Assembly: GCF_009914755.1 (NCBI RefSeq)
Contig: NC_060929.1
Direction: 5' to 3' (one strand)
Length of the DNA stretch: 64,000 bases
Source of the DNA: the human T2T-CHM13v2.0 reference genome, Homo sapiens
Position numbers and translations under genes: made by a program. Of this stretch, positions 13,760-51,921 are shown piece by piece. Under the pieces are notes generated by a model. It had not been told where the DNA came from, did no database searches, and saw only the letters and a program-made list of their open reading frames with translations. Position 1 is the first letter of the stretch; every line of letters starts with the position of its first letter.

Positions 13760-14290
13760 AGAATCCACTACACATGAATGTGAGTGGTGATAAAGAAGGA
13801 CAGATTGAGCATCGCTTTAAGATTTCCAGCTTAAAAGATTGGATGGGCTCCAAAGGAGGGAAAGTGTTCATTTTTTCTTTATACTGTTGAGTGCCTGAAT
13901 GGAGATTTTGAACATTAAAAAAATATGAGTCTGGAATGAAATGCAGATATGAGTGTTTCTTGTATAGATTTTTGTTGAAGTTATGAGAGCAATTAAAATG
14001 ATTAAGAAGAAAAGGATAACATCACACAGAATTAACAGTTAATGGTTGTGAAAATGACTGAGAAGGAAAATCAGAGAGTTAAGGGGAGAACCAAGAACAT
14101 GCTGTCTCAAAATTCAAAGCAGGGAAAAATTTAAAAAGGAACAAATGATTAAGTATAAAATATTTCATTTCTGAGTAGGTAAGAAAAAATACATTGAAGC
14201 TGGTCTGTATTTTAAAGGAATTATAGAAGAGTTATAAAGTTCTATTGAAGACATTGAGTATAGGCAATGTCTGTAAAGAAAGAGAAAGAG
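13760..14290 (-). mobile_element. L2 fragment
   Basis: Purine-rich L2 motif GACTGAGAAGGAAAATCAGAGAG...GGAGAACCAAGAACATGCTGTCTCAAAA. Confidence 0.6.
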
Positions 14291-14518
14291 GCACAAGGCA
14301 AAATGAATAGAGTTTGAATGCACACATACACACAAACAAAAGAAGATTAAAGGGAAAATATAAAAACAGGGTGCTCCTGAATATTCCAGTAACATTTACT
14401 TTTCCTTACATATCATAGGCATGATGAAAACATCTCTTACAGTTTTTTCCAAATAAAAATAACAAAACTAGCATTTTTCTATGTAAAATATTAAAAAATT
14501 ATTTTATTAACTTGCTTT

Positions 14519-14719
14519 CAGTTAATTTCTTTGATTCTAAGATGTTCATTTTTCTACATTTGATTATATCTGAAATGAGAATTTACCATACCACTGATGT
14601 GGTAGAAAACCAACAAGTCATAGTTTGATTCACAGGTTTGCTCTTTCTCTTTCTTGGTGTCGTATAAAATAATGATGTGACTTACAACAGATGTAAACCT
14701 TAGATTTGATGAAATATAG
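14519..14719. mobile_element. TcMar-Tc2 MITE (MER104/Kanga-like)
   Basis: Imperfect terminal inverted repeats ATTTCTTTGATTCTAAG ... CTTAGATTTGATGAAAT. Confidence 0.55.
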
Positions 14720-15773
14720 TATAGCAAAGATAACTGACCACTGATCTTTACAGTCAGCTATGCTTTGCTAAGATCAAATATGCCACATTAATAATGATGC
14801 AAACATATTGCTCATATTTATTGATATAGATTCAGAGTTTCTGATTAAGAAAATATTTCTATTTTTGTTGATTTCAAATTAGAAAATTGTCAGTGCATAG
14901 CCTATAAATGATTAATTAACTAACATTACAAAGCATTTTACTTTAAAAATACATTGTAGTTTAAAATTCAAAAAAGCCTTTAATTTTATTTAATTATTAT
15001 GCAATAGTAAAGAGAAATATAAAAATTGTAAATTTATTAATGATGCCATATGCCATGAAAATGTTTTCTATATAGATACAAATTCGAATATATGCCTCAT
15101 TTTGTCCCCGTTGTTCTGAAAATACATAGGCAGAAATCAATACTATTATAAAATGTGGTTTCTTGATCTCCCATTTAATTAGTGTGAGTTAAACCTCAAT
15201 AATCACTGGTAATTCTGTTTTTACATTTCTTTGTTACATATCAGAAGTTTACAGCTTATTATGAAATCTTAAGCTAACATTTTTGGTAAAAACATTGGAT
15301 TTGATGTTATATGTGTTATTATCAGATGTGCTTTTTACTAATATCAGTTGGCTGAAACAAAAGCCCAAAATCTATGATTTGGTCAGGATTTGTTTGATTA
15401 CATAAACTACTTTGATGACTCTAAGTAGAATTCACATGTGAAGGGACATTGCACTCTCAATAAGAACCAGAAAATGATTTTATAGTTGAGCACATGTAGT
15501 ATCACTAGCACCAAATAACTACTGCAAACCTGAAAATGAACATCCTTCAGTATCACTAAAACAAAGGGTTTAAAATTTGGGGAATCTAAAACATAATTTC
15601 ATGAAGTGCCTGATGTTTTATTATTTAAAATAGAGACTTAATCAAATATATTTATGCCTTTTAGTACTTACCCAAATGACCCAAATGACTCTTTATATTA
15701 CAGGTTTATACATGCTAAATTTAACATTTCAAATAAAAAGATTTTAAGTAAATTCCAGAAAGCGTAATTCAGC

Positions 15774-16137
15774 TATATTAGCCCATTTTCATGCTGCTGA
15801 TAAAGACATAGAGACTGGGCAATTTACAAAAGAAAGAGGTTTACCAGACTCACAGTTCCACGTGTCTGGGAAGGCCTCACAGTCATGGCAGAAGGTGAAA
15901 GGCACATCTCACATGATAGAAGACAAGAGAAGAGAGAGAGCTTGTGCAGGGAAACTCCCATTTTTAAAATCATCACATCTCATGAGACCTATTCACTATC
16001 ACAAGAACAGCATGGGAAAGACCCATCCCCATGATTCAATTACCTCCCACTCACTGAGTTCCTCCCAGGGCACATGGGAATTGTGGGAGTTAAAATTCAA
16101 GATGAGATTTGGGAAGGGACAGAGCCAAACCATATCA
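15774..16137 (-). mobile_element. THE1 (THE1B-like) MaLR solo LTR
   Basis: Ends in ...AGCCAAACCATATCA; perfect 5-bp TSD TCAGC at 15769-15773 and 16138-16142. Confidence 0.93.
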
Positions 16138-16463
16138 TCAGCTGATACCAAAGGTCTGAAAAAACTTAAAATATATACTAAAGTTGACTACTTTAAATTT
16201 AGAAAACGAATGGTGATTTTAGTTATTTTGAGGCTTAATATAGTTAACACATGTATTTCTTCAATATAATTTCAAAAACTATTTTTAACAAACTAACATA
16301 TAACGGAATCAACATATTTCACTAGTATATTTATCTTTACATAAAAAAAGAGAAATATTTTTATAGATCTACTTTGAAGTGAAAAGTAAAACATGTTGAT
16401 GTCAGTGAGTTATCTATTTCGCATATAACAAGCAAAACCAGCATTTAAGATAAAATGATACAA

Positions 16464-16822
16464 TTAACAGTTCATTGGTTATAAACATGCTTAAAAGAAA
16501 AATTCCTCTATCATGGCAAACTTTGTGTTGAAAAAGAAAAGTGTCATTAGCCACCACAGAGTACCTAAGATAAAATCAAATATTGATTTTATTTAAGAGA
16601 CTACTCTTTAAGAGTTTTCTAACCACAGCTTAGTTAATCCTTATAAAAACAAAAGAAGAAAAATAAGTCCTACCAAGATATTTTTAATATCTTTCTAAAA
16701 ATTCAGTTACACTTATATGACACACCTTAAAGAGACTACAGAAACCCCAACTTCAGAAAGAATGGAAAAACATTGTAATTATGTAGTATAATTATGAGTT
16801 TGTTCCTTCTGGTATGATAAAA
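16464..16822 (+). repeat. Left arm of 359-bp perfect inverted repeat
   Basis: Reverse complement matches 18668-19026 with no mismatch found by eye. Confidence 0.97.
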
Positions 16823-17368
16823 TGTTCTGAGCTATGCTATATAGGCTGTGCACTTAGGAACATCAATACTTATATTGTGTAAAATGAACAGCCACTGAGC
16901 TCCAATGGGCTTCATTTTGTGTTTTAAGATTCCTGAGAATGACTTCGAGATCATTAGCTCTATAAGCACTAATGCATGCTGTTGCTCCTAAAGGAGCATA
17001 ATGAAGTAAAAACATGAGAGTAGCTAATCTTAACATTGTGTTAATTCTAAAAAGAAGAGATGTGTATACGTATTTTTTTGCCATCAAATGGAGGAATAAA
17101 TTTTTTAAAAATGTGAAATGTTATCTCTTTTTTATATTTAAAAACATCATTTAAAAAGAATAAGAATGCTTAACAAGTAGAATTTTCCTGGCTAAGTTAA
17201 AGGCAATTCTCCCTGAGGCTTTTTCACCTGAAGATCTATATTTGGACCACAAGGTAAGTCATCAATTCAAGATCAGGTGACCATCATCTCTTGTGGCTGG
17301 ACAATAGTTTGTTAATCCTTTCTATACATCAATTTATACATACTTTTGGCCCCTAAAAAATAGTCTGG

Positions 17369-17700
17369 GGCCGGGCATTGTGGCTCACATCTGTAATCCC
17401 AGCACTTTGGGAGGCCGAGGTGGGCGGATCACTTGAGGTCAGAAAAGTTCAAGACCAGCCTGGCCAACGTGGTGAAAGCCCATTTATATTATAAACACAA
17501 AAATTAGCCAGGCATGGCGGCACACACCTGTGATTCCAGCTACTCGGGAGGCTGAGGTATGAGAATTGCTTGACCTGGCAGGCTGAGATGGCAGTGAGCC
17601 GAGATCGTGCCACTGCAATCCAGCATGGGTGACAAAGCAAGACCCTGCCTCAAAAACAAAATCAAAAACCAAACAAACAGACAAACAAAAAACAAATAAT
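17369..17700 (+). mobile_element. AluS in the inverted-repeat spacer
   Basis: GGCCGGGC start, dimer structure, A/C-rich tail. Confidence 0.95.
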
Positions 17701-18667
17701 AATGTTTGGGAAAACTCACACTTGCTAGTAGACCACATATTATTTTGATAAATAAAGTGCCCTCACTCCTTCCTTAGCAAGACATCAATCTTAGTGTGTG
17801 GCCTTGAAAGTCTGGTTATTTAAATATTCATATCATACCTAAAGCAAGGAAAATATAATTATCTACTACATAACATATATAATAATTCCATTCTGTAAGG
17901 CTTTCCAAACAGTAGGTATTTCAATTAAAAAAAAGTTTCTTGATCATGAACTCCAGATGATGAGCTGACCATGTTTCTATGGATTATAACACATAGCCTT
18001 GGAATTGCTGCCTATAATGAAAATAACCCATGAAAGCTATAAACGTTACAGCCCTGATTTAAGTGATGTTGTGTTTTATCGAATAACATGCCTATATTAA
18101 AATTGTGAATTATTTTGTGTTAACTTAGTTTTATGTAATTGATTCAAATTCCAGCAAATATGATTCCTATTAATGAAATAAATGAGTATACAATTTCCAA
18201 ATATTTCTGACAATGAAGAACAGTACAAAATTACGATACTACTGATACAAAAGCAAAACTTGTCTTCAAATTTAAATGTCTTTTTCGCACCAAGACTTTA
18301 ATGAGAGTTTTTATTTTTAAGTTTAAATTTCTAATCTTGTGGGCAAATATACTGCAGGTACATTTGTAGTATTATAAAAGAAATACAGTAGTGGATAATA
18401 TCACAATCAAATGTTTCTAAGTTGTATTAAAATATTCAATCTATTTAAGTTAAAAATATATGAATGTTTCATTTTTGTACCTTCCATCCAGATTAGTACC
18501 AGTTTATAGAATCTAGTCCCCCTCCTCTTCCTCACCAAAGCAAATAATCCCTCTTACAATGACAAATGGTTAAAATAATAGAATGTGTGATTTAGTACTA
18601 AAAACTAGAGGAAATTATTATGAATATATAACAAATCTGACCATATTTCCCCTAGATAAATTAAATG

Positions 18668-19026
18668 TTTTATCATACCAGAAGGAACAAACTCATAATT
18701 ATACTACATAATTACAATGTTTTTCCATTCTTTCTGAAGTTGGGGTTTCTGTAGTCTCTTTAAGGTGTGTCATATAAGTGTAACTGAATTTTTAGAAAGA
18801 TATTAAAAATATCTTGGTAGGACTTATTTTTCTTCTTTTGTTTTTATAAGGATTAACTAAGCTGTGGTTAGAAAACTCTTAAAGAGTAGTCTCTTAAATA
18901 AAATCAATATTTGATTTTATCTTAGGTACTCTGTGGTGGCTAATGACACTTTTCTTTTTCAACACAAAGTTTGCCATGATAGAGGAATTTTTCTTTTAAG
19001 CATGTTTATAACCAATGAACTGTTAA
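18668..19026 (-). repeat. Right arm of 359-bp perfect inverted repeat
   Basis: Reverse complement of 16464-16822. Confidence 0.97.
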
Positions 19027-19789
19027 CTAATAAAACTGCTTTTATTAGTTAAATATTAGATATATTTCCATTAAGACAGAACTAAATCACACATTTTGTC
19101 TTTGAAAGAAATTATTGGAATAAAGTAAGAGAGATATTATTGGAATCTTCCTTCTAGATGCTCTAATTGGAAAAGATGATAATTAGGAATCAGTCTAGGT
19201 CATGAGACATAGTCTACTATAATATTTTGGTCGCACAATTCAAAACTAGCTCAAGTGAAAAGTTTCAGAACCAATGTGCCCCACCAAACCGAAAGCAATC
19301 AGGGCCCCAAATCATTCCATTCCCCGTGTGGTTTCATACTGATGCAGTAGGCAATTTCTTCCATCATAGGGAATCACATCAGCGAGGCAGTTGAAAACAC
19401 CAAAAGGGAAACCTAGAGCAAAGGCTGAGCTATATAAAAATATTAGATATGGAGAGCTTGCTCCTAGAATCACCTTGTTCCTGAAGGTCAAAGGGTAATA
19501 TATTTGAAAAGAAGATTTTTGTTGCTGTTATTCTTTTCTTTTTTTCTTTCCTTTTTTTTTTTTTTTTTCCCCTAGGAGTACTCTACTACACTAGGGCCTG
19601 TGTTCTCAGATCCACCTTCTACCCAACTGTTGACTCACTGAACTGGTTACACAGAACTATATTATTTAGATCTTCATTTTTAGCATACTAATAAACAGTG
19701 AAGAGACAAAAGAAAAATTAAACTAAAACAAGTATTAATACGTATCAAACTAACTTCTTCACATTCAAAGATGTATAAACTGATCAGAA

Positions 19790-20260
19790 AATCAACAAAG
19801 AGTTCTTAAAAATATGAGAGAAGTGATGGAAAAGTCAAGAAAATACTGAAAATAAAGAAAATATTATGACAACTCTCAGATATTAAAATAGACTATAAAA
19901 CTATGATGATCAAAATAGTGTGGTCATAGCCAAAGGCTAAATATCAATAGGACAGAAAACTCAGAAATAGAAGTTTAAAATGTATATGAATATGTGCATA
20001 TCCTTTCATGTAGGTAGTTTTTCATATCAGTTGTGAAAAGATGGTTACTGCAAAGATGCTGAATCTATGCATTAGCTATTTAGTGACAAAACTGTTTAGC
20101 TAATTAGCTATATATAAAAATTAATTATTCATAAAGATGTTAATAAAAATTGATACCATAGAATAGTAATACATGTTGATTGGAAATTCCTTATAAGCAG
20201 TATCATCATTTCCAATAATCATAAAACTAAAGAGAAATATTATCTATAAAGGGAAATACA
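19790..20260 (+). mobile_element. Ancient L1M ORF2 fragment
   Basis: ACTATAAAACTATGATGATCAAAATAGTGTGGT...ATCAATAGGACAGAA L1 ORF2 motif. Confidence 0.55.
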
Positions 20261-20362
20261 GATAGAACCACCATCAAATAAAAGCAAATCTGGACTTAAG
20301 AGGCAATCTTATTTTAAAAGACTTGCAATAAGAAGAATTTTCCAATCCTAAGATTTATAAAC

Positions 20363-21748
20363 ATGTGGTGCTCTTTCCCTTACCCTAGGGATGGGGCTTC
20401 CTGAGAGCCAAACTGCAGAGATTGTTATTGCTCTTCTGGATTTAGCCACCCAGAGAGGCTACTGGGCTCTAGGCTGGTACTGAGGAGTGTCTGCAAAAAG
20501 TCCTGGGATATGATTCATGTTCAGATCTTTCAGACCTAGATTCCAGCACCTGCTCCATTGATGGTAGCAGGGGAGTAAAGTGGACTCTGTGAGGGTCCTT
20601 GGTTGTAGTTTTGTTTAGTGTGCTGGTTTTGTGTTGGTTGGCTTCCAGCCAGGAGGTGGGGCTTTCATAACTGCATCAGCTGTGGTAGTATAGGGAGGAT
20701 ACAAGCTTACCCTAGGGTCACCTGGATAAGTATTCAGGTTTCTCAGGCAATGGGCAAGGCCATAGAATGCCCAAGAGATTATGCCCTTTGTCTTTGGCTA
20801 TGACGGCAGGTAGAGAAATGCCATCAGGTTGGAGGCAGGATTAGGCATGTCTGAGCTCAGATGCTCCTTGGGCATGGCTTGCTGCAGCTGCTGTGGGGAT
20901 GGGGTGTGGTTCTCAGGCTGGAAGATGGAGTCACGTTCCCAGGGGGATTATGGCTGCCTGTCCTGTGTCATACAGGTCGCCAGGGAAGTGGGGGAAAGTT
21001 GGCAGTGATGTGCCTCACCCTTCTCCCATGCAGCTTGCAAGGCCAATCTCACTCCCACCATGCCCCCACAACAGCAGCAAGTTTATGTCCAAGCAGCTGG
21101 TGAGCAGGGCTGGGAACTTGCCCCAGGCTACAATCCTCCCAGCTGAGAAAGCAAGCAGGGCATTAGGCTTTGTACCTCCCCACCAGCCACAGTTTCTGTG
21201 CTCTTATCTGCACTTCCCATTCGCACCCTCCCCTGGATTCTGTCCAGCAAATTTTGCATTTGGTCAAAACTATTACAAAGTTCAGCTGGAAGTTTCCTTC
21301 TCCCTATGGTCATTCCCCAATTCCACTGGCAGCCCTCCCCAAATACCCCTGCAAGACGAAGTCAGGAATGGCTTCCCTGGAGACCTAGAGTGTCCACAGG
21401 GCTCTTCCTACTGCTTCCTCTACCCCTATACTTTGTTCAGCTCTCTAAATTCATCTCAGCTCCAGGTAAGGGCAAATCCTTCTCCCATTACCTGGACCTT
21501 CATGTTCCCCAGTGAGGATGTGTGTTCAGGGGGGGACATTTCCCTTCTAACACTTTGGGCACTCGCAATTTTTTGGCTGTCTCATGGAGCCTGTACTGGC
21601 AAGCCACTTCCTTCAAAGGGTCTATGGATTCTCTCAGTTTTCCTGGTATGTTCCTGCAGTAGTTCGTGGATCAAAAGTTCACGATATGAGTCTCCACATG
21701 CTCCTCTATCTGTCCTAGTGGGAGACACAAGTTAGTCCTGCCTCCCGT
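20363..21748 (-). mobile_element. L1PB-type 5' UTR fragment (a few more bases at about 22535-22550)
   Basis: GC-rich antisense L1PB 5' motifs (GATGGGGCTTCCTGAGAGCCAAACTGCAG, CAAGTTAGTCCTGCCTCC). Confidence 0.75.
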
Positions 21749-50825: not shown

Positions 50826-51203
50826 TAATATGGTTCGTCTGTGTCCTTACCCAAATCTCATCTTGAATTATAATCCCCATAATCCCCACGTGTCAAGGGT
50901 GGGACCAGGTGGAGGTAACTGGATCATGGGAGTGGTTTCCCCTATGCTGTTCTTTTGCTAGTGAGTGAGTCTCATGAAATCTGATGGTTTCATAAGCATC
51001 AGGCATCTCTCCTGCTGGCAGTCACTCCATCCTGCCACCCTGTGAAGAAAGTGCCTGCTCCTCCCATTTGCCTTCTGCCATGATTTTAAGTTTCCTGAGG
51101 CCTTCTCAGCAATGCAGAACCATGAGTCAATTAAACCTCTTTCCTTTATTTATTACCAAGTCTCAGGTATTTCTTCATAGCAGTGTAGGAATGGACTAAT
51201 ACA
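50826..51203 (+). mobile_element. THE1C/D-like solo LTR
   Basis: Full LTR ending GGACTAATACA; perfect TSD ATCAG at 50821-50825 and 51204-51208. Confidence 0.92.
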
Positions 51204-51561: not shown

Positions 51562-51921
51562 TGTGTTAGCCCATTCTCACGCTGCTATGAAGAAATACCT
51601 GAGACTGGGTAATTTATAAAGGAAAGAGGAATTGACTCACAGTTCCACATGGCTGGGAAGTCCTCAGGAAACTTACAATCATGGTGGAAGGCACCTCTTC
51701 ACAGGGTGGCAGAAGAGAGAATGAATGACAGCAGGGGAAAGGTCAGACACTTAGATAACCATCGGATCTCCTGAGAATTCACTCACTATCAGGAGAGCAG
51801 CATGGGGGAAACCACCCAAATGATTCCATTACCTCCCACTGGGTCTCTCCAAAATACATAAGGATTATGGGGATTACAATTCAAGATGGGATATGGTTGG
51901 GGACATAGCCAAACCATATCA
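51562..51921 (-). mobile_element. THE1C/D-like solo LTR
   Basis: TGTGTTAGCCCATT...CCAAACCATATCA; near-TSD AAAAT/AAAGT. Confidence 0.92.

What the first reader, a model, noticed from the sequence alone, without database searches (positions are those of the whole stretch)
16464..19026. Perfect 359-bp inverted duplication of non-repeat DNA bracketing a 1845-bp, potentially invertible segment
Seen: 16464-16822 is the exact reverse complement of 18668-19026; I found no mismatch in 359 bp and both edges are sharp. The arms resemble no transposon I recognise and show no TSD, and the spacer has no transposase (only unique DNA and one AluS). Surrounding repeats are heavily diverged, so perfect identity implies a very recent origin or ongoing gene conversion (inference). 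Established: inverted repeats like this can mediate recurrent NAHR inversion of the spacer, and if co-transcribed would fold into a 359-bp perfect dsRNA stem, a potential ADAR, Dicer or MDA5 substrate. The spacer and arms also hold exon-like segments, so inversion could alter splicing (speculative).
Basis: partly seen in the sequence, partly recalled or inferred. Interest (0 to 1): 0.82.

Follow-up and report, generated by a model that had tools for sequence, protein, structure and literature searches.

The report
Small local inverted duplication in human DNA
A 359-base piece of unique human DNA was copied once, upside down, about 1.8 kb from its source, which is the commonest kind of small "inversion-type" structural change in human genomes and has no sign of a function here.

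Summary
16464-16822 is the exact reverse complement of 18668-19026: 359 nt, 100% match, 1845 nt between the arms. Both edges are sharp. Identity falls to 19/60 and 17/60 just outside, and the flanks show no residual homology.

The arm has exactly two copies in the whole T2T-CHM13 assembly, and the neighbouring DNA is otherwise unique. There is no TSD, no protein domain and no Rfam hit. It is therefore not a transposon.

The structure fits the "inverted duplication" class of Sudmant et al. 2015: stretches under 1 kb inserted within 5 kb of the alternate copy, 54% of their validated "inversions".

The 9 nt left of the left arm match the last 9 nt of that arm at 8 of 9 positions. The null is 3.35e-4 per pair, about 0.005 over 15 pairs. 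This points to the left arm as the new copy, made by a microhomology-guided template switch.

Perfect identity only limits the age to under about 4-8 Myr. Inversion switching and dsRNA formation are physically possible but could not be tested, because no other human or ape sequence was available. This is an ordinary new member of a known kind, of low interest.

The parts
16464..16822 (+). Left arm of the inverted duplication (359 nt). Inferred to be the derived, inserted copy.
   Evidence: exact reverse complement of 18668-19026; only 2 copies in the genome; junction microhomology implicates this arm as the new one.
18668..19026 (-). Right arm (359 nt). Inferred to be the source copy, in its original context with the right flank.
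16823..18667 (.). 1845-nt spacer of unique DNA plus one old interspersed repeat. Its orientation relative to the ancestral state is unknown.
   Evidence: no other genomic copy outside the interspersed repeat; no coding domain.
17367..17707 (+). High-copy interspersed repeat inside the spacer (Alu-like by recall). It is old compared with the arms.
   Evidence: 9698 first-look candidates; the other scored copies are 80-87% identical. The hub's NCBI mask lists 17367-17707.
16455..16463 (+). 9 nt immediately left of the left arm (ATGATACAA). They match the arm's last 9 nt at 8 of 9 positions.
   Evidence: 3'-anchored match of 9 with one mismatch. Null 3.35e-4 per pair; 15 pairs tested.
16814..16822 (+). 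Last 9 nt of the left arm (ATGATAAAA), the partner of the junction microhomology.

Best explanation
This is the scar of one small structural mutation, a local inverted duplication. A 359-bp stretch of unique DNA (now 18668-19026) was copied once and the copy was placed in reverse orientation at 16464-16822. A growing DNA end most likely left its template at 16463, copied the opposite strand of the source about 2 kb away, and returned. The return was guided by the 8-of-9 match between the newly made end (ATGATAAAA) and the departure site (ATGATACAA). This is a replication or repair template switch of the FoSTeS/MMBIR type. The event happened on the human lineage within the last few million years and is probably neutral. 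It lies in an intron of a predicted lncRNA in a gene desert. As by-products, the two arms could now support NAHR flipping of the spacer and would pair into a 359-bp duplex in any transcript that spans both. Shown: the anatomy, the two-copy uniqueness, the sharp edges, the junction microhomology and the fit to the published class. Inferred: the direction of copying, the mechanism, the age and neutrality.
For: The IR is perfect over 359 nt with a 1845-nt spacer. There are exactly 2 genomic copies, and the flanks 16145-17360 and 17712-20350 are otherwise unique, apart from low-complexity hits around 19495-19568. There is no homology beyond the edges, so this is one discrete copied block and not the converted core of an older repeat. 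Of 15 pairwise comparisons of breakpoint ends, only 'left flank end vs left arm end' shows a 9-nt match with one mismatch; all others reach 4 or less. The null from 200,000 random pairs in the window is 3.35e-4, about 0.005 after 15 tests. [quoted passage not shown] Collins 2017, passages read, attributes duplication-flanked inversions to MMBIR/FoSTeS or to repair of simultaneous breaks.
Against: No ancestral or second-haplotype sequence could be examined, so derived status, direction and polymorphism are inferred from a single assembly. The other novel junction (16463|16464) has no microhomology, which fits blunt end-joining as well as template switching. The microhomology test was designed after looking at the junctions, and 8 of 9 in AT-rich DNA is suggestive, not proof. 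The HGSVC3 supplement held no variant ID beginning chr5-10585 or chr5-10532 to chr5-10536. My GRCh38 coordinates were guessed, so this says little.
Confidence: 0.6

Rival explanations
1. Inversion with a flanking inverted duplication (dupINV/INVdup, or the one-sided staggered-break model). The spacer was inverted in the same event that duplicated the arm, so the IR is the footprint of an inversion and not a plain insertion.
For: This layout has the same two novel adjacencies as the plain inverted duplication. The two are alternative paths through one breakpoint graph and differ by a single flip between the arms (my reasoning from the layout). The junction microhomology fits this model equally well. 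The class is catalogued in Collins 2017. The staggered-break model appeared only as a search listing, Ranz 2007 PMC1885836, and was not read.
Against: Nothing in the window separates it from the plain duplication. Plain inverted duplications were the majority class in Sudmant 2015, 54% against 20% simple inversions and 5% more complex sites.
Confidence: 0.2
2. Active inversion switch. Whatever its origin, the IR pair now mediates recurrent NAHR, so both spacer orientations segregate in humans. This does not exclude the best explanation.
For: In the Porubsky preprint, 132 of 183 sequence-resolved balanced inversions have flanking IRs of at least 200 bp (passages read). The arms are 359 bp, 100% identical and only 1.8 kb apart. 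Giner-Delgado 2019 (passages read) finds that the IR-to-inversion length ratio correlates with inversion frequency.
Against: In the same preprint IR length is the main driver of recurrence, and 23 of 32 recurrent autosomal and X inversions have IRs of at least 10 kbp. 359 bp lies at the low end. No population data could be examined.
Confidence: 0.12
3. An older inverted repeat kept identical by gene conversion.
For: Perfect identity on its own allows it.
Against: Homology stops abruptly at all four edges with no degraded extension. Zero differences in 359 CpG-free bases is unremarkable for a duplicate under a few Myr old.
Confidence: 0.03
4. An assembly artefact in T2T-CHM13.
For: None found here. 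Only one assembly could be seen.
Against: The whole 2.6-kb structure is far shorter than the long reads used for this assembly (general knowledge, not tested here). The sequence around it is clean and unique.
Confidence: 0.02
5. A DNA transposon with 359-bp terminal inverted repeats, or an L1 twin-priming inversion.
For: The arms begin and end with TTAA, a piggyBac-type target (recalled). TTAA is its own reverse complement, so this symmetry is automatic.
Against: There are only 2 copies of the arm in the genome. There is no TSD and no transposase or other Pfam domain. The arms are not L1 or any other detectable repeat.
Confidence: 0.01

Closest known systems
'Inverted Dup' (inv-dup) class of the 1000 Genomes phase 3 SV map (Sudmant et al. 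2015, PMC4617611)
   Same: A duplicated stretch under 1 kb (359 bp), inverted, within 5 kb of the alternate copy (1845 bp), with no retrotransposition hallmarks.
   Different: That class is defined as a polymorphism relative to hg19. Here only one haplotype was seen, so polymorphism and ancestral state are unknown.
dupINV / INVdup complex SVs (Collins et al. 2017, PMC5338099)
   Same: An inverted duplicate on one side of a segment. The breakpoint adjacencies are identical.
   Different: Membership requires the middle segment to be inverted relative to the ancestor, which could not be tested. Those calls were mostly much larger events seen at jumping-library resolution.
IR-mediated (NAHR) polymorphic inversions (Aguado 2014; Giner-Delgado 2019; Porubsky preprint 2021)
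   Same: Highly identical inverted repeats bracket a short segment, and the IR exceeds the 200-bp criterion.
   Different: Those IRs are usually SDs or L1/Alu pairs of kilobases. The arms here are a 359-bp unique-sequence duplicate. No second orientation is documented here.
Staggered-break inversions with inverted duplications at the breakpoints (Drosophila; Ranz et al. 2007, search listing only)
   Same: An inverted duplication of unique sequence flanks a segment, and the duplication is a product of the rearrangement, not its cause.
   Different: That model gives duplications at inversion ends and needs an inverted middle. Here the middle orientation is unknown and only one block is duplicated.

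Membership tests
Local inverted duplication (Sudmant 2015 'Inverted Dup') | Duplicated stretch shorter than 1 kb | tested here: met
   359 nt
Local inverted duplication (Sudmant 2015 'Inverted Dup') | Copy in inverted orientation within 5 kb of the alternate copy | tested here: met
   100% reverse complement, 1845 nt apart. Criterion quoted.
Local inverted duplication (Sudmant 2015 'Inverted Dup') | Not a retrotransposition or mobile-element product | tested here: met
   2 genomic copies only. No TSD and no poly-A tail beyond 4 A's that belong to the source.
Local inverted duplication (Sudmant 2015 'Inverted Dup') | One arm absent in the ancestral or alternative allele | not testable with these tools
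   No other human or ape sequence is held.
dupINV / INVdup complex SV | Middle segment inverted relative to the ancestor | not testable with these tools
   No outgroup. No ancient repeat crosses a junction that could act as an internal marker.
Recurrent NAHR inversion polymorphism | [quoted passage not shown] | tested here: met
   359 bp, 100%. Criterion.
Recurrent NAHR inversion polymorphism | Both orientations observed among haplotypes | not testable with these tools
   Only one assembly is available.
Recurrent NAHR inversion polymorphism | Long IRs (at least 10 kb in 23 of 32 recurrent cases) | tested here: not met
   359 bp against at least 10 kbp.
DNA transposon with terminal inverted repeats | Target-site duplication, multiple genomic copies, transposase or a known non-autonomous family | tested here: not met
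   No TSD. 2 arm copies, both at this locus. 0 of 5 frames hit Pfam.
L1 twin-priming inversion | The inverted segments are L1 sequence within an L1 insertion | tested here: not met
   The arms and the adjoining spacer have no other genomic copy.

The most novel reading that the evidence does not exclude
The 359-bp unique-sequence arms act as a working flip-flop. Both spacer orientations would segregate or toggle in humans through NAHR between very short, perfectly identical, recently made repeats. The same arms would form a 359-bp perfect intronic dsRNA in the LOC105379110 precursor that is heavily A-to-I edited. That would give a dated, human-lineage example of how a template-switch duplication creates a new invertible and dsRNA-forming locus.
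Probability: 0.12. Interest if true: 0.45.

Novelty: new member of a known kind. Interest (0 to 1): 0.2.

Why it matters
It matters little by itself, because small local inverted duplications are the most frequent "inversion-like" variant in human genomes. The locus is a clean textbook example: unique sequence, perfect arms, sharp edges and one junction with readable microhomology. It also shows why an inverted dispersed duplication and a dupINV cannot be told apart from breakpoint junctions alone, since they are the two flip states of one structure. If long-read panels showed both spacer orientations, the locus would help define the lower limit of repeat length for NAHR inversion in humans.

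Tried and rejected
- **Ancient repeats as orientation markers.** I looked for repeats crossing any of the four junctions to orient the spacer. Whole-genome searches with 16145-17360 and 17712-20350 found nothing except the two arms and low-complexity hits. Wider queries were swamped by flanking repeats at 15773-16138 and from 20363.
- **A second human haplotype.** I looked for one as contamination in the prokaryote and viral collections, using a 36-nt stretch of the spacer. Both gave 0 hits.
- **Catalogue look-ups.** The HGSVC3 supplement (PMC12350169) had 0 occurrences of IDs starting chr5-10585 or chr5-10532 to chr5-10536. My GRCh38 coordinates were guesses, so this is weak. The Cell version of Porubsky 2022 is not held. 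The only paper naming LOC105379110 gives no coordinates and calls its GWAS signal probably spurious. The 2026 inversion benchmark paper has none of my search terms. Aguado 2014 lists no inversion near this place; 'staggered' there refers to restriction enzymes.
- **Other searches.** Rfam gave 0 hits in 15500-20000. Tandem repeats appear only at 19531-19570.
- **Rejected explanations.** Rejected on the evidence: a TIR transposon, L1 twin priming, and the gene-converted core of a larger old repeat.
- I did not search with a hypothetical ancestral junction, because that would have meant typing a joined sequence.

Full report
**Observation.** The repeat finder on 14000-21500 gives one inverted pair, 16464-16822 and 18668-19026: 359 nt, 100% complementary, 1845 nt between the arms. 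I read the sequence, and a script confirmed exact reverse-complement identity. In the whole window, with arms of at least 80 nt and at most 10 kb apart, 4 inverted pairs exist. The other three are 86-141 nt at 74-80%.

The edges are sharp. Walking outward without gaps, 19 of 60 positions match at the outer edges and 17 of 60 at the inner edges. Local alignments of the 300-nt flanks score 12, against shuffle means of 12.2 and 12.0; 188 of 300 and 167 of 300 shuffles reach the observed score.

**What the DNA is.** The arm has exactly two matches in the 3.1-Gb assembly, both at this locus. Queries 16145-17360 and 17712-20350 find only themselves, the partner arm and some T/C-rich low-complexity hits near 19495-19568. 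The arms, the spacer and the near flanks are therefore unique DNA. The one exception is 17367-17707, a high-copy interspersed repeat with 9698 first-look candidates, whose other scored copies are 80-87% identical. I recognise it as Alu-like from recall.

There is no Rfam family and no tandem repeat in the structure. No stop-to-stop frame exceeds 92 aa, and 0 of the 5 longest frames hit Pfam. There is no target-site duplication: the left flank ends ...GATACAA and the right flank starts CTAATAA.... The TTAA at the arm tips is its own reverse complement, so its symmetry carries no information. A transposon with TIRs and an L1 twin-priming inversion are both excluded.

**Origin.** The four boundaries define six distinct "ends", and I compared all 15 pairs. 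One pair stands out. The 9 nt just left of the left arm (16455-16463, ATGATACAA) match the last 9 nt of that arm (16814-16822, ATGATAAAA) at 8 of 9 positions, anchored at the 3' end. Every other pair reaches 4 or less. Among 200,000 random pairs from the window, a match this good occurs at 3.35e-4, or about 0.005 over 15 tests.

This homology is relevant only if the left arm is the new copy. A growing 3' end that had just copied the source to its end (…ATGATAAAA) could re-anneal at the site it had left (…ATGATACAA) and carry on. The other new junction (16463|16464) is blunt. I designed this test after seeing the junctions, so I treat it as good but not conclusive evidence for direction and for a template-switch (FoSTeS/MMBIR-type) mechanism.

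**One structural ambiguity remains.** "Source plus inverted copy with the spacer unchanged" and "spacer inverted plus inverted copy" (dupINV/INVdup) share the same two novel adjacencies. They differ by one flip between the arms. Nothing in a single haplotype separates them, and no ancient repeat crosses a junction to serve as a marker.

**Age.** The arms are 28.1% GC and contain no CpG. With assumed rates of 1e-9 and 0.5e-9 per bp per year (general knowledge), the chance of zero differences is 0.5 at 0.97-1.93 Myr and 0.05 at 4.17-8.34 Myr. Perfect identity therefore shows an origin on the human lineage or close to it, not necessarily a "very recent" one. Gene conversion need not be invoked, and the abrupt edges argue against an older, larger repeat with a converted core.

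**Comparison with what is known.** Sudmant et al. 2015 (PMC4617611; passages read) verified 229 "inversion" sites. [quoted passage not shown] These were not typically linked to retrotransposition and were attributed to a mutational process possibly involving replication errors. This locus meets every structural criterion: 359 bp, inverted, 1845 bp away, no mobile-element hallmarks. Collins et al. 2017 (PMC5338099; passages) name the related dupINV/INVdup classes and give MMBIR/FoSTeS or synchronous break repair as mechanisms. The feature is a new member of a known and common kind.

**Possible consequences.**
[quoted passage not shown] Recurrence there is driven by repeat length, and 23 of 32 recurrent autosomal and X cases have repeats of at least 10 kbp. 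Giner-Delgado et al. 2019 (passages) find that the repeat-to-inversion length ratio correlates with frequency. A 359-bp perfect pair 1.8 kb apart is a possible but weak substrate.
- *dsRNA.* Both arms lie in intron 1 of the predicted minus-strand lncRNA LOC105379110 (hub annotation). Folding the 2563-nt stretch gives MFEs of -985.6 kcal/mol (plus strand) and -1023.7 kcal/mol (minus strand), with 358 and 357 of the 359 arm pairs formed. The stem alone is worth -589.1 kcal/mol. Any transcript spanning both arms would form the duplex. Whether such a transcript exists or is edited could not be tested. As an intronic structure it is an unlikely cytoplasmic MDA5 or Dicer substrate (inference).
- *Exons.* RefSeq lists no exon here, so the "exon-like segments" idea has no support.

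**What could not be done.** No other human or ape sequence is held. The published Porubsky paper is not held. Polymorphism, ancestral state, spacer orientation and expression therefore remain open.

**Verdict.** The feature is an ordinary local inverted duplication, probably neutral, with the left arm as the likely derived copy. Interest 0.2.

Noticed in passing
window 15773-16138: A roughly 365-bp interspersed repeat just left of the feature, 83-87% identical to copies on many chromosomes (8684 first-look candidates). NCBI masks 15774-16053. The family was not identified.
   Followed up: partly
window 20363-20500 and beyond: Another interspersed repeat, 86-90% identical to many loci over the last 138 nt of my query. 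Its full extent was not determined.
   Followed up: no
window 50828-50968 and 51779-51919: A 141-nt inverted pair at 76% complementarity, 810 nt apart. It is probably two old repeat copies in opposite orientation.
   Followed up: no
window 19531-19570: A short T/C-rich tandem or low-complexity tract (period 13-19, about 2-3 copies). It accounts for the only extra genomic hits of the right flank.
   Followed up: partly
LOC105379110 (window -86664..63769, minus strand): The only paper naming this lncRNA reports a GWAS signal (venous thromboembolism after mRNA vaccination) that its authors consider probably spurious (PMC13519795; passages read).
   Followed up: partly
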